Sequence record: PZ445437.1
Length of the DNA stretch: 64,000 nt
DNA from: a phage
Direction: 5' to 3' (one strand)
Part shown: in pieces, positions 40,881 to 43,457 of the stretch
Numbering within the stretch: position 1 is the stretch's first letter
Layout of the letters: every line of letters starts with the position of its first letter
Notes under the pieces: model-generated
Told to the model about the DNA's origin: nothing
Seen by the model: only the letters and a program-made list of their open reading frames with translations
Database searches by the model: none
Program-made: the position numbers and the translations under genes

Positions 40881-41354
40881 TTATTTGATTTGTTTAGCAG
40901 ACCAAATGCGGTCTTTAATAATTTTTTGGATGTCTTCAACATACTCAAGAGAGTGAGCATGTGGGTTATCTTTGAAACTATAAGCACGAGCTAGCTTTTG
41001 GCCTTCAGTTTTGATTACTAAAAGCTCTTTAAGGATAGCTTCATATTTGGAGATAATTCCTTTAACGATATTTTTCTCTTGCGTGACTTTAGGATCTGCT
41101 TTAGGAGCAGGTTTACCTGAAGCCTTTGCAAAAGCAGCTCCAGTAGCAACTAAACTTTTCCAAGCCATACTAACTGCATTCCCTGTAAATCCTTCGGCTT
41201 TCATATCACGAGCAAATTGGAATCGTGATTCATCGGAAGCATCTTTATAGGAATATTTACCCGCGGCAATGGCTGCTTTTGCGACAGCTTGAATTTCGGT
41301 GCTAGATGCTTCATTTAACACCGCTTCATTTAAAAATTGAGCATATGATTTCAT
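40881..41354 (-). CDS. Internal-protein-like protein with capsid-targeting leader (157 aa)
   Basis: N-term MKSYAQFLNEA follows the IP leader pattern M-K-[ST]-Y-x-[EQ]-F-[IL]-x-E-A; Ala/Lys-rich; own late promoter and flanking terminators. Confidence 0.55.
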   Translation of the reverse strand: MKSYAQFLNEAVLNEASSTEIQAVAKAAIAAGKYSYKDASDESRFQFARDMKAEGFTGNAVSMAWKSLVATGAAFAKASGKPAPKADPKVTQEKNIVKGIISKYEAILKELLVIKTEGQKLARAYSFKDNPHAHSLEYVEDIQKIIKDRIWSAKQIK

Positions 41355-41390
41355 CTTATTTCCTGTTTTAATTTGTGGTTTTAATATACT

Positions 41391-41398
41391 TATTTATA
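41391..41398 (-). promoter_or_regulatory. Late promoter (TATAAATA)
   Basis: Minus strand TATAAATA about 35 nt upstream of AGGAAA RBS and ATG at 41354. Confidence 0.55.
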
Positions 41399-41404
41399 CT
41401 AAAA

Positions 41405-41428
41405 AGCCCCAACCTTTCGGCTGGGGCT
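41405..41428 (-). terminator. Intrinsic terminator (GNRA tetraloop), copy A
   Basis: Minus strand AGCCCCAGCC-GAAA-GGUUGGGGCU + U5; near-identical to copy B. Confidence 0.6.
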
Positions 41429-41430
41429 AA

Positions 41431-41739
41431 GCCTTGCGGCAACCTTGTCGGGGTTCCACCTGCTAAGGCAAGTGTTTGTACGAAACGCCGGGATTCGAAC
41501 CCGGTTATCAAGCAGTTGACGCTACTCAATATTTTTAAAAGGCCATATCTCGACCATATCCGAACGTTCCGTCAAAAACGCTACTCGGCTTACGGCAAAG
41601 ATATTTCCTCGAATCGATAATTCGGTGCGCCGTTTCTGCTGTGATATAAGGGGACATTAACAAAACATAAAGATTTATTAATGCCAGTCCTTAAACAGGG
41701 AACATCAGTCCGACGACTTACCGGTAGCGACCCGGTTTC
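41431..41739 (-). ncRNA. Candidate stable small-RNA region (boundaries unknown)
   Basis: ~310 nt without convincing ORF between the ORF downstream of tRNA-Arg and a strong terminator; contains tRNA-like T-arm CCGGG-TTCGAAT-CCCGG (41488-41504); T4 has RNA C/D near tRNA-Arg. Confidence 0.3.
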
Positions 41740-42090
41740 TTAATATTCTTTTAAAGCATCAATCTGTTCACGGCGTTTACGCCATAAATCAATTGCTTCA
41801 TACACAGATTCAGCATTTCGAATTAGCCGGCATTTATGTAAAGACTTATGATTTTGATATTGTGTAGATAATGGAATTGTATCTAAAAGGTCTTTACGAT
41901 CAAAGTATTCGTAACCATCTAAACCAAATGAACGATTTTTGAGAAATTGCCAATGGCCAAATTCATTTTCAACATAAACATAATCTGCATGCTGATAAAG
42001 TAAATTAATTACACGTTCAGAAATAGCAGTATCATTATGATTAAAATAGAATGTTAAATCATGAACTACTAAATAAACATTACCTTTCAT
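41740..42090 (-). CDS. Hypothetical protein (116 aa)
   Basis: ORF starting 19 nt after tRNA-Arg 3' end. Confidence 0.5.
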   Translation of the reverse strand: MKGNVYLVVHDLTFYFNHNDTAISERVINLLYQHADYVYVENEFGHWQFLKNRSFGLDGYEYFDRKDLLDTIPLSTQYQNHKSLHKCRLIRNAESVYEAIDLWRKRREQIDALKEY

Positions 42091-42188: not shown

Positions 42189-42264
42189 TGGGGTGACCGA
42201 TGGGAGTCGAACCCATGACTACGAGAATCACAATCTCGAGTTCTACCAACTGAACTACGGCCAC
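42189..42264 (-). tRNA. tRNA-His (anticodon GUG)
   Basis: Hand-folded cloverleaf, 76 nt, CCA encoded, anticodon loop UUGUGAU. Confidence 0.8.
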
Positions 42265-42378
42265 ATTAATACCTACTCCAACAATCAAGATGTCTTCACA
42301 CGAAATTAAGAGAAGAGTGATCAGTTCAACCCCTATAATCGCGTCAAGTAGATATTAATGTGACAGTTGTCACAAATT

Positions 42379-42800: not shown

Positions 42801-42806
42801 AAATAT

Positions 42807-43457
42807 TTATATATTGTTAATTTGATTTAGAATTCTTTTTGCTTGAGTATGACTTACGCCAATATGCTTAGCATATTTAGATAATTCACCACGCTTAGAA
42901 AAATCATATAATTTAGAAATTTCTATTCTTCTTTTTCTTTCATCCACAGAAACTTTTGCTTCGTTTGCTTTTGCTATTTTACGTTTAGCTTCTTGAGAAT
43001 GAGTTTTACCAGCAAAGCCATTCTTCATTAATCCATTTGAAGACCATCCTTTTAATTTTCCGTTAGAATGTGCCTTTTTAACACCCAATGAAATTAATTC
43101 GCGTTGCTGGTCTGTCATAGGATAATTATTTATATGATCCCATCCACCTTCACCGCCAAGTTTTAAATTATACACATCTGGTCTATTTAAAAACTCTTCT
43201 GTAACAATATTTTTCTCGGCTTCAAGCATAGATTCTTTATCATCAAAATACTCTAATATTTCTTTAGAAAAATTTTCTATACCATACTTATCTTGGGCTC
43301 TTTTTAATAATTTACCAGAACCCATATATCCATCATCTAAATTTTCGGTAGAATGCACACCAATATAAATTTTATTATTAATTTTATTTGTTATTTTATA
43401 AAGATAAAAATGCATATCAGTCCCTAATAAAGAACTGAGCGTCTCACGACGAGTCAT
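42807..43457 (-). mobile_element. segB: GIY-YIG homing endonuclease SegB-like, inside tRNA cluster
   Basis: FYLYKITNKINNKIYIGVH...DDGYMGSG GIY-YIG motif; located between tRNA-Gly and tRNA-Ser as segB is in T4; probable true start at internal Met (43415). Confidence 0.8.

What the first reader, a model, noticed from the sequence alone, without database searches (positions are those of the whole stretch)
41431..41739. ORF-free ~310-nt segment with a tRNA-like T-arm: candidate stable small RNAs
Between the ORF that follows tRNA-Arg and the strong terminator at 41405-41428 there is no convincing ORF, but the minus strand carries a canonical T-arm (CCGGG-UUCGAAU-CCCGG, 41504->41488) followed by CGUUUCG, and a possible complementary GAAACCGG near 41735. 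T4 encodes two stable RNAs of unknown function (species 1 and 2, RNA C/D) next to tRNA-Arg; this could be their counterpart, or a tRNA-like RNA with a large insertion.
Basis: partly seen in the sequence, partly recalled or inferred. Interest (0 to 1): 0.45.

Follow-up and report, generated by a model that had tools for sequence, protein, structure and literature searches.

The report
T4 stable RNAs rnaD and rnaC
This ORF-free stretch holds this T4-like phage's copies of the two long-known small stable RNAs of phage T4 (species 2/rnaD and species 1/rnaC); the tRNA-like T-arm belongs to rnaC, which comparison across phages shows to be a tRNA-derived cloverleaf locked by a loop-loop contact, but whose job is still unknown.

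Summary
The window is a Tequatrovirus (T4-like) genome. Window 41743-41480 (minus strand) aligns base for base with the annotated T4 and RB68 genes rnaD (species 2 RNA, 86.6% identity to T4) and rnaC (species 1 RNA, 97.8%). A conserved 3' trailer and the terminator follow.

The T-arm at 41504-41488 and the CGUUUCG after it are the 3' end of rnaC. Its acceptor partner is not the GAAACCGG at 41739, which is the 5' end of rnaD. It is rnaC's own 5' end, CGAUUCG (41616-41610).

Twenty distinct rnaC homologues from at least eight named Tevenvirinae genera, most of them inside tRNA gene clusters and lacking rnaD, support this fold:
- a 7-bp acceptor stem;
- a 70-nt irregular arm (P2);
- a 10-bp hairpin (P3);
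- a T-arm.

94.7% of cells are paired and 32 of 48 pairs show compensatory change. The P2 apical loop UUGACG pairs with the whole P3 loop CGUCAA, and this 6-bp contact covaries twice.

No reading frame is conserved. Rfam has no family for either RNA. Function remains unknown in the literature I could read.

Verdict: an already known feature, correctly recognised. The structural model is the only added value.

The parts
41623..41743 (-). rnaD orthologue (T4 species 2 RNA), about 118-121 nt. The conserved core starts AGAAACCGGG at 41740, overlapping the stop codon of the upstream ORF. It ends ...GGCGCACC-G at 41623; T4 has CACCA here.
   Evidence: Alignment to the T4, RB68 and Kha5h annotated genes. 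86.6% identity to T4.
41720..41736 (-). rnaD hairpin D1: ACCGG-GUCGCUA-CCGGU.
   Evidence: Predicted in all single-sequence folds and in the consensus fold. The closing pair covaries A-U to G-C in L022.
41647..41693 (-). rnaD distal hairpin, the variable cassette. Related phages carry three non-homologous versions, and each folds as a hairpin.
41617..41622 (-). Spacer/leader AAUUAU between rnaD and rnaC. A near-identical A/U-rich leader (AAUUAU, AAUAAU, AACAAU) follows the CCA of the upstream tRNA in the Karam-, Gelderland-, Kagamiyama- and Winklervirus loci that lack rnaD.
41480..41616 (-). rnaC orthologue (T4 species 1 RNA), 137 nt from acceptor nucleotide 1 (C, 41616) to discriminator U (41480). 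The encoded ACA follows at 41479-41477.
   Evidence: 97.8% identity to T4. The boundaries are those of X03016 'species 1 RNA'. Structure.
41610..41616 (-). rnaC acceptor stem, 5' strand CGAUUCG.
   Evidence: Pairs with 41487-41481. Pairs 1, 3 and 5 show compensatory changes and pair 2 varies G-C/G-U. The two central U.U become U-A and C-G or U-A in fHe-Yen9-01, L016 and PM2.
41540..41609 (-). rnaC long irregular arm P2 (five helical segments, 70 nt). Its apical loop carries UUGACG at 41575-41570.
   Evidence: 16 of its 20 pairs show compensatory change (helices 2-6).
41506..41531 (-). rnaC hairpin P3 (10 bp). Its 6-nt loop CGUCAA lies at 41521-41516.
   Evidence: 9 of 10 pairs show compensatory change (helix 8). 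X03016 annotates it as 'pot. stem-loop structure'.
41570..41575 (-). P2 loop half (UUGACG) of the 6-bp loop-loop (kissing) interaction with 41516-41521 (CGUCAA).
   Evidence: 99.2% of cells paired. It covaries as UUGGCG/CGCCAA in the Klebsiella-phage type and UUGAUG/CAUCAA in the fHe-Yen9-01 type. Predicted duplex energy is -7.5 kcal/mol.
41488..41504 (-). rnaC T-arm: CCGGG-UUCGAAU-CCCGG.
   Evidence: helix 9: two pairs covary. The loop is canonical in 30 of 33 distinct homologues.
41481..41487 (-). rnaC acceptor stem, 3' strand CGUUUCG.
41441..41474 (-). Conserved 3' trailer with two small hairpins: CACUUGC-CUUA-GCAGGUG at 41474-41457 and AACC-CCGACAA-GGUU at 41455-41441. It is kept even in phages that lack rnaC.
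   Evidence: The sequence is invariant, so there is no covariation evidence for these hairpins.
41405..41428 (-). Intrinsic terminator hairpin followed by a U run.
   Evidence: one pair covaries C-G to G-C. X03016 annotates it as 'pot. terminator'.

Best explanation
The segment encodes two separate small stable RNAs, the orthologues of T4 rnaD (species 2) and rnaC (species 1). They are transcribed on the minus strand as the tail of the phage tRNA operon and end at the terminator at 41428-41405.

rnaC is a tRNA-derived RNA. It keeps a 7-bp acceptor stem stacked on a canonical T-arm. The D and anticodon arms are replaced by a 70-nt arm (P2) and a 10-bp hairpin (P3), and the apical loops of P2 and P3 pair with each other over 6 bp.

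Inferred mechanism:
- The acceptor/T-arm minihelix acts as a processing and stability handle.
- Host RNase P cuts exactly at acceptor nucleotide 1 (41616).
- The A/U-rich leader AAUUAU is where endonuclease separates rnaC from rnaD, or from the upstream tRNA in other phages.
- The 3' side is trimmed to the discriminator U (41480) and completed to CCA.
- The RNA therefore matures and accumulates like a tRNA, in effect a natural 'tRNA scaffold'.
- The rigid P2-P3 body is the part that acts in trans, most probably as a binding surface or decoy for a host or phage protein rather than in decoding. It has no anticodon loop.

rnaD is an unrelated, independently distributed RNA. It has a small 5' hairpin and a long arm whose tip is freely exchanged.

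What is shown: identity, boundaries by homology, secondary structure, the loop-loop pairing and the absence of coding. What is inferred: the processing steps and the trans-acting role.
For: Identity:
- 806 phage records match the segment, and rnaC/rnaD features lie under the match.
- It aligns with T4; identities are 97.8% for rnaC and 86.6% for rnaD.
- The synteny tRNA-Arg, rnaD, rnaC, terminator is the same as in T4.

Structure of rnaC:
- The RNAalifold consensus has 30 of 42 pairs with compensatory change.
- The named structure including the pseudoknot has 94.7% of cells paired, against 35-45% when the partners are slid. 32 of 48 pairs changed on both sides, and 0 of 500 shuffles reached this.
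- The single-sequence minimum-energy fold gives the same cloverleaf.
- Length is constant at 135-138 nt even where the interior of P2 is not homologous.

Loop-loop contact: two independent double changes.

tRNA-like processing:
- X03016 places the species 1 ends exactly at acceptor nucleotide 1 and at the discriminator.
- In PG7, EnA02, CF-SP2, EcS1, Virsaitis27 and fHe-Yen9-01, rnaC sits between or next to tRNA genes at tRNA-like spacing.
- Position -1 is U in most homologues. The sequence after the discriminator is NCA, or a full CCA in 7 of 33.

Expression: a T4 northern blot and RNA-seq detect RNAC and class both RNAs as late (PMC9697503).

Not coding.

Independence of the modules.
Against: - No experiment was done on this phage. 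The RNA ends are transferred from T4 annotation. The two T4 records differ by 1 nt at the 5' end and 1 nt at the 3' end (137 nt in X03016, 139 nt in NC_000866).
- RNase P cleavage and CCA addition for species 1 rest on my memory of 1970s-80s papers that the library does not hold.
- Most homologues have two U.U mismatches in the acceptor stem.
- Three homologues have a non-canonical T-loop, so tRNA-enzyme recognition may not be uniform.
- The covariation counts are not corrected for phylogeny.
- Covariation cannot tell whether the loop-loop pairing forms within one molecule or between molecules.
- The rnaD fold has only 4 compensatory pairs and unremarkable folding z-scores.
- The trans-acting protein-binding role has no direct evidence. 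The literature states that the function is unknown (PMC3014915, PMC9697503, PMC12685909).
Confidence: 0.85

Rival explanations
1. One long tRNA-like RNA of about 260-310 nt whose acceptor stem is GAAACCGG (41739) paired with CGUUUCG (41487). Everything between would be an insertion.
For: The two sequences are present, and GAAAC/GUUUC are complementary. A second GAAACG at 41636-41631 is also complementary to CGUUUC. In the unprocessed dimeric precursor such pairings could form transiently.
Against: - rnaC homologues in Karam-, Kanagawa-, Teguna-, Gelderland-, Mosuguk-, Winkler- and Kagamiyamavirus lack rnaD entirely. They close the acceptor with their own 5' end, and that pairing covaries.
- JS98-type phages keep rnaD without rnaC.
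- T4 annotation and the northern blot give two separate RNAs.
Confidence: 0.03
2. A decayed tRNA gene: the T-arm is a relic and the stretch is non-functional spacer or 3' UTR of the tRNA operon.
For: The RNA fails tRNA models. Rfam gives only tRNA-Sec at 16.4 bits against a threshold of 47, and ARAGORN finds nothing. From memory, T4 deletions of the tRNA region are viable.
Against: - Length is constant at 135-138 nt.
- 32 pairs covary and a tertiary contact covaries, across at least eight named genera.
- rnaC is 97.8% identical between this phage and T4, while rnaD is 86.6%.
- A stable transcript is seen in T4.
Confidence: 0.03
3. The stretch encodes one or two small proteins. Several GenBank records annotate 'hypothetical protein' here.
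For: Automatic annotations call CDSs over it (T2 CDS0059 and CDS0060). The window has TTG/GTG-start ORFs of 42, 53 and 81 aa.
Against: - No frame on either strand is free of stops across the 20 rnaC or the 11 rnaD homologues.
- Close relatives differ by 1-nt indels.
- The variation is compensatory for base pairs, not codon-periodic.
- The ORFs have no ATG start.
Confidence: 0.02
4. rnaC is a chargeable tRNA mimic. It would be aminoacylated at an added CCA end and act through its amino acid or acceptor end. One possibility is a decoy or sink for host defence toxins that modify tRNA 3' ends. Another is a tmRNA-like or non-ribosomal aminoacyl donor.
For: - The acceptor/T minihelix is intact, the discriminator is an invariant U, and NCA or CCA follows.
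- PM2 has G3.U70 plus an encoded UCCA.
- The Klebsiella-phage type encodes UCCA.
- tRNA-targeting defences are a known selective pressure on phage tRNA genes (general knowledge).
Against: - There is no anticodon.
- Most members carry tandem U.U in the acceptor stem.
- The acceptor identity pairs vary between lineages (A3-U70, G3-C70, G3.U70).
- Some lineages have a degenerate T-loop.
- ARAGORN finds no tmRNA and there is no tag frame.
- No experimental hint of charging is known to me.
Confidence: 0.1

Closest known systems
Phage T4 rnaC (species 1 RNA) and rnaD (species 2 RNA), as annotated in NC_000866, X03016 and KM607004
   Same: Orthologous sequence: rnaC is 97.8% and rnaD 86.6% identical to T4, and rnaC is identical to that of RB68. 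The order, strand and terminator are the same. The position at the end of the tRNA cluster after tRNA-Arg is the same.
   Different: Here a 116-aa ORF (41740-42090, phrog_3355, function unknown) separates tRNA-Arg from rnaD, as in RB68 and T2. The 5' end of rnaD therefore cannot arise simply from cleavage one nucleotide after the tRNA-Arg CCA as in T4. The rnaD 3' end reads CACCG rather than CACCA.
Canonical tRNA (Rfam RF00005)
   Same: A 7-bp acceptor stem is continuous with a 5-bp T stem. The T loop is the 7-nt UUCGAAU. A single discriminator base is followed by NCA. The gene sits in a tRNA cluster at tRNA-like spacing. Overall it is a four-helix junction.
   Different: There is no D arm and no 7-nt anticodon loop. 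The arms are 70 nt and 26 nt and are joined by a 6-bp loop-loop helix. The RNA is 137 nt long. It fails RF00005 and ARAGORN.
tRNA-like domain of tmRNA
   Same: An acceptor plus T-arm module is joined directly to a long helix that leaves from the position of the D/anticodon arms, with no D stem.
   Different: There is no G3.U70 (except in PM2), no tag reading frame and no ring of pseudoknots. ARAGORN makes no tmRNA call. The RNA is about a third of the size of tmRNA.
Engineered 'tRNA scaffold' RNAs, in which a cargo RNA is grafted into a tRNA so that E. coli processes and stabilises it (own knowledge: Ponchon and Dardel, 2007)
   Same: The same logic: an acceptor/T-arm handle for RNase P and 3' processing, plus a structured non-tRNA cargo that accumulates stably.
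   Different: rnaC is natural, and both the D and anticodon arms are replaced. The analogy describes how it may work and does not place it in a family.
   Same: Two hairpin loops are fully complementary over 6 nt, and the pairing is maintained by covariation.
   Different: Those are contacts between molecules. Here it is unknown whether the contact forms within one molecule or between molecules. There is no sequence or functional relation.

Membership tests
T4 rnaC (species 1 RNA) | Sequence homology over the full length to the T4 gene | tested here: met
   134 of 137 positions are identical to T4 and all are identical to RB68 rnaC.
T4 rnaC (species 1 RNA) | Position at the distal end of the phage tRNA cluster, same strand, upstream of the terminator | tested here: met
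T4 rnaC (species 1 RNA) | Conserved secondary structure shared by the homologues | tested here: met
   The window sequence satisfies every helix of the covariation-supported model.
T4 rnaC (species 1 RNA) | Accumulates as a discrete stable RNA during infection | not testable with these tools
   Shown for T4 by northern blot (PMC9697503). Not shown for this phage.
T4 rnaD (species 2 RNA) | Sequence homology to the T4 gene and position immediately upstream of rnaC | tested here: met
   86.6% identity overall. The 5' 45 nt and 3' 25 nt are nearly invariant.
T4 rnaD (species 2 RNA) | Conserved secondary structure | tested here: inconclusive
   The consensus fold has 30 pairs but only 4 with compensatory change. 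Folding z-scores are -0.65 to -2.5. Three non-homologous cassettes all fold as hairpins.
tRNA (RF00005) | 7-bp acceptor stem plus T arm with a 7-nt T loop | tested here: met
   helices 1 and 9.
tRNA (RF00005) | D arm, and an anticodon arm with a 7-nt loop | tested here: not met
   They are replaced by the 70-nt P2 and by P3 with a 6-nt loop that is fully paired to P2.
tRNA (RF00005) | Scores at or above the family threshold, or is called by a tRNA finder | tested here: not met
   There is no RF00005 hit even at E<=10. tRNA-Sec scores 16.4 bits against a threshold of 47. ARAGORN finds nothing in the window element. It mis-calls parts of the PG7 and EnA02 homologues.
tmRNA | G3.U70 alanine identity pair, tag reading frame, pseudoknots | tested here: not met
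   The pair is A3-U70 here. No frame is conserved. ARAGORN finds no tmRNA.
YrlA / bacterial Y RNA (RF02553) | Match to the family model | tested here: not met
   The only weak YrlA hit (17.7 bits against a threshold of 69) lies on the tRNA-His/tRNA-Arg genes, not in this segment.

The most novel reading that the evidence does not exclude
rnaC defines a widespread family of tRNA-derived RNAs in Tevenvirinae, not catalogued in Rfam. Its acceptor/T-arm handle lets it use the host tRNA maturation pathway. Its kissing-loop body, or a charged or modified CCA end, acts as a decoy or regulator against a host factor, for example a defence toxin that recognises tRNA shape or tRNA 3' ends.
Probability: 0.15. 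Interest if true: 0.7.

Novelty: already known. Interest (0 to 1): 0.3.

Why it matters
The locus itself is textbook T4 biology, so finding it in another Tequatrovirus is ordinary. The function of species 1 and species 2 RNA has nevertheless been open for about fifty years. It is still listed as unknown in 2010, 2022 and 2025 papers.

The comparative model obtained here gives precise handles for experiments:
- exact ends;
- a tRNA-like handle;
- a covarying 6-bp loop-loop contact;
- independent distribution of rnaC and rnaD;
- presence of rnaC inside the tRNA clusters of many genera.

It also gives an annotation fix. Many GenBank records call hypothetical proteins, or over-long tRNAs, over these RNAs.

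Tried and rejected
- Rfam at gathering and at E<=10 thresholds found no family for either RNA, only noise-level hits.
- ARAGORN found no tRNA or tmRNA in the segment.
- Small-protein coding was rejected because no frame is conserved.
- A search for antisense or base-pairing targets of rnaD+rnaC in 5,426 E. coli genomes found only four chance 27-nt A/U-rich matches at E=3.
- Pfam and PHROGs scans of the two flanking ORFs gave only families of unknown function.
- Literature searches for 'species 1 RNA', 'p2Sp1', RNase P processing of species 1, and a tRNA-like RNAC found nothing relevant. The T4 genome review (PMC150520) is not held. Statements about RNase P and CCA addition on species 1 therefore remain memory-based.
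- The IMG/VR and metagenome pattern scans added Klebsiella-phage-type and other variants, but no lineage outside T4-like phages of enterobacteria.
- I did not run a phylogeny-aware covariation test such as R-scape, or a covariance-model scan of all Straboviridae genomes.

Full report
**What the window is.** ARAGORN and Rfam find ten tRNA genes on the minus strand between 42109 and 43701, in the order Gln-Leu-Gly ... Ser-Thr-Met-Tyr-Asn-His-Arg. A blastn search with window 41380-41760 against 50,697 phage records hits 806 records. Almost all are Tequatrovirus phages of Escherichia, Shigella and Yersinia. Three records are 100% identical (Shigella phages ESH35 and ESh33, Escherichia phage vB_Eco_EL). 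The features under the match are named 'rnaC' and 'rnaD' in Kha5h and RB68.

**Checking the observation.**
- The stretch has only TTG- or GTG-initiated ORFs of 20-81 aa.
- Across 20 rnaC and 11 rnaD homologues, no reading frame on either strand is free of stop codons.
- Close relatives differ by single-nucleotide indels.

**Identity.**
- RB68 (KM607004) annotates ncRNA rnaD and rnaC directly after a 116-aa ORF that follows tRNA-Arg.
- T4 (NC_000866) annotates rnaD at 71053-71171 and rnaC at 70908-71046, directly after tRNA-Arg.
- The original T4 tRNA-region record X03016 annotates 'species 2 RNA' (120 nt, ending GGCGCACCA) and 'species 1 RNA' (137 nt, CGAUUCG...CGUUUCGU).
- A four-way alignment shows the window collinear with these genes at a mean column identity of 94%. 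rnaC is 134/137 identical to T4 and rnaD is 86.6% identical.
- Transferred to the window, rnaD is about 41743-41623, the spacer AAUUAU is 41622-41617, rnaC is 41616-41480 and an encoded ACA follows at 41479-41477.

**The two RNAs are independent modules.**
- rnaC-only homologues were found in PG7 and EnA02 (Karamvirus), Entb_45 and Kosakonia phage 305 (Kanagawavirus), fHe-Yen9-01 (Tegunavirus), CF-SP2 (Gelderlandvirus), PM2 (Mosugukvirus), Virsaitis27 (Winklervirus), EcS1 (Kagamiyamavirus) and Klebsiella phages.
- They lie on the tRNA strand, inside or next to the phage tRNA region (tRNA neighbours were confirmed for all of these loci except Kosakonia phage 305). In several phages they sit between tRNA-Trp and tRNA-Gly at tRNA-like spacing.
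- Conversely, JS98-type phages (Dhakavirus) have rnaD joined directly to the 3' trailer, with rnaC cleanly absent. One contig (L027) has rnaD followed by unrelated sequence.

**Structure of rnaC.**
- I collected 33 distinct homologues, all 135-138 nt. Twenty of them were aligned as A4.
- RNAalifold predicts a cloverleaf-like four-helix junction. 30 of its 42 pairs are kept through changes on both sides.
- I added the two central acceptor pairs and a pseudoknot, then counted pairs. 94.7% of cells form standard pairs, against 35-45% when the 3' partners are slid by 1-3 columns. 32 of 48 pairs have compensatory changes, and 0 of 500 shuffles reach the observed values.
- The elements are these:
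  - A 7-bp acceptor stem, CGAUUCG/CGUUUCG. Its two central U.U mismatches become U-A and C-G or U-A in fHe-Yen9-01, L016 and PM2. Pair 3 switches between A-U and G-C.
  - A 70-nt irregular arm, P2, that leaves directly from the acceptor.
  - An A/U-rich linker.
  - A 10-bp hairpin, P3. X03016 already noted it as a potential stem-loop.
  - One nucleotide, then the T-arm.
  - The acceptor 3' strand, then an invariant U, then ACA, UCA or CCA.
- The window's own minimum-energy fold reproduces this shape at -49.2 kcal/mol.

**A tertiary contact.**
- The apical loop of P2, UUGACG (41575-41570), is the exact complement of the entire P3 loop, CGUCAA (41521-41516).
- The pairing is kept as UUGGCG/CGCCAA in the Klebsiella-phage type and as UUGAUG/CAUCAA in the fHe-Yen9-01 type. 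These are two independent double substitutions. 99.2% of cells are paired.
- The predicted duplex energy is -7.5 kcal/mol.
- Covariation cannot say whether the loops meet within one molecule or between molecules.
- I found no description of this contact in the searchable library. The older T4 literature is not held, so I cannot claim priority.

**rnaD and the trailer.**
- All rnaD versions fold into a small 5' hairpin (ACCGG-GUCGCUA-CCGGU, 41736-41720) plus a long arm. The closing pair of the hairpin covaries once.
- The long arm is closed by GUCGUCG (41717-41711) pairing with CGGCGCAC (41632-41625).
- The distal half of the arm exists as three non-homologous cassettes (T4/window type, T2 type, JS98 type), and each folds as a hairpin.
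- Statistical support is weak: 4 compensatory pairs and z-scores of -0.65 to -2.5.
- The 46 nt between rnaC and the terminator contain two invariant small hairpins. They are retained in phages without rnaC. Their role is open.

**How it most likely works.**
- Shown: rnaC has the acceptor/T-arm minihelix of a tRNA. In related phages it sits in tRNA clusters with an A/U-rich AAUUAU-type leader after the upstream CCA, and U at position -1 in most. The ends annotated in X03016 coincide exactly with acceptor nucleotide 1 and the discriminator.
- Inferred: RNase P makes the 5' end, an endonuclease cuts the A/U-rich spacer, and 3' trimming with CCA repair completes the 3' end. That would give 137+3 = 140 nt, the size I recall for species 1; this figure is from memory and unverified. 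The minihelix thus serves as a maturation and stability handle, like an engineered tRNA scaffold.
- The P2-P3 body carries most of the covarying pairs, and its two apical loops are held complementary. I take it to be the functional surface, most likely for a protein. This last step is a commitment, not a result.
- A TATAAATA motif (the T4 late-promoter consensus) lies on the minus strand at 42811-42804, just upstream of tRNA-Ser. This agrees with the late class reported for RNAC and RNAD (PMC9697503).

**Comparison with known families.**
- The segment is a member of the T4 rnaC and rnaD gene families.
- It is not a tRNA. It has no D arm and no anticodon loop, and it fails RF00005 and ARAGORN.
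- It is not a tmRNA. It has no G3.U70, no tag frame and no ARAGORN call.
- It is not a YrlA-type Y RNA.
- Rfam 15 has no family for either RNA.

**Verdict.** This is a correct recognition of an already known, already annotated feature, and the finding as written scores low. The residual interest lies in the unsolved function. The structural model makes that question more directly testable.

Noticed in passing
L004:1554-1648 (PG7); L011:1547-1642 (EnA02): ARAGORN calls the 3' two-thirds of rnaC homologues as over-long tRNAs: 'tRNA-Met' of 95 nt in PG7 (the GenBank record carries the same call) and 'tRNA-Phe' of 96 nt in EnA02. Many Tequatrovirus records annotate 'hypothetical protein' CDSs over rnaC and rnaD. 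These look like systematic annotation errors.
   Followed up: partly
A4 columns 75-76 and the T loop; L005, L025, L039: 30 of 33 rnaC homologues have a canonical T loop and an unpaired GG just before the CCU that closes P2. The three with T loop UGCAUGC or UGCAUC have CG there instead. This may be a contact like the tRNA D-loop GG with the T loop, but it probably reflects a single evolutionary event.
   Followed up: partly
window 41441-41474 (minus strand): An invariant 3' trailer with two small hairpins lies between rnaC and the terminator. It is retained in JS98-type phages that lack rnaC. Its CCCCGAC...AAGGUUG partly repeats the terminator stem sequence.
   Followed up: partly
window 41631-41636 and 41735-41739 versus 41482-41487: rnaD carries two GAAAC(G) motifs complementary to the 3' acceptor strand of rnaC. 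All lineages that have rnaD show A3-U70 in rnaC, which makes CGUUUC. Lineages without rnaD have G3-C70, except PM2 (G3.U70). This could be an alternative pairing in the dimeric precursor or just shared ancestry.
   Followed up: no
L009:1429-1570 (PM2); L038, L041-L043, L048, L058 (Klebsiella-phage type): These rnaC versions encode a full U-CCA 3' end. PM2 also has a G3.U70 pair, the alanine identity element used by tmRNA.
   Followed up: no
window 41740-42090 (minus strand): A 116-aa ORF (phrog_3355, function unknown) is inserted between tRNA-Arg and rnaD, and its stop codon overlaps the first conserved base of rnaD. It is absent in T4 and present in RB68 and T2.
   Followed up: partly
window 42189-42378 (minus strand): tRNA-His plus a 114-nt spacer sits between tRNA-Asn and tRNA-Arg. 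RB68 and Kha5h go directly from Asn to Arg, so the tRNA cluster is mosaic.
   Followed up: no
window 42804-42811 and 41391-41398 (minus strand): TATAAATA, the T4 late-promoter consensus, lies immediately upstream of tRNA-Ser and again immediately after the terminator, ahead of the 157-aa ORF at 40881-41354 (phrog_2280). The count of this motif in the whole window is not above chance.
   Followed up: no
L039:241-326 (Virsaitis27): The 85 nt between tRNA-Ile and rnaC look like a class-II-like tRNA ending CUCCCACCA that ARAGORN does not call.
   Followed up: no
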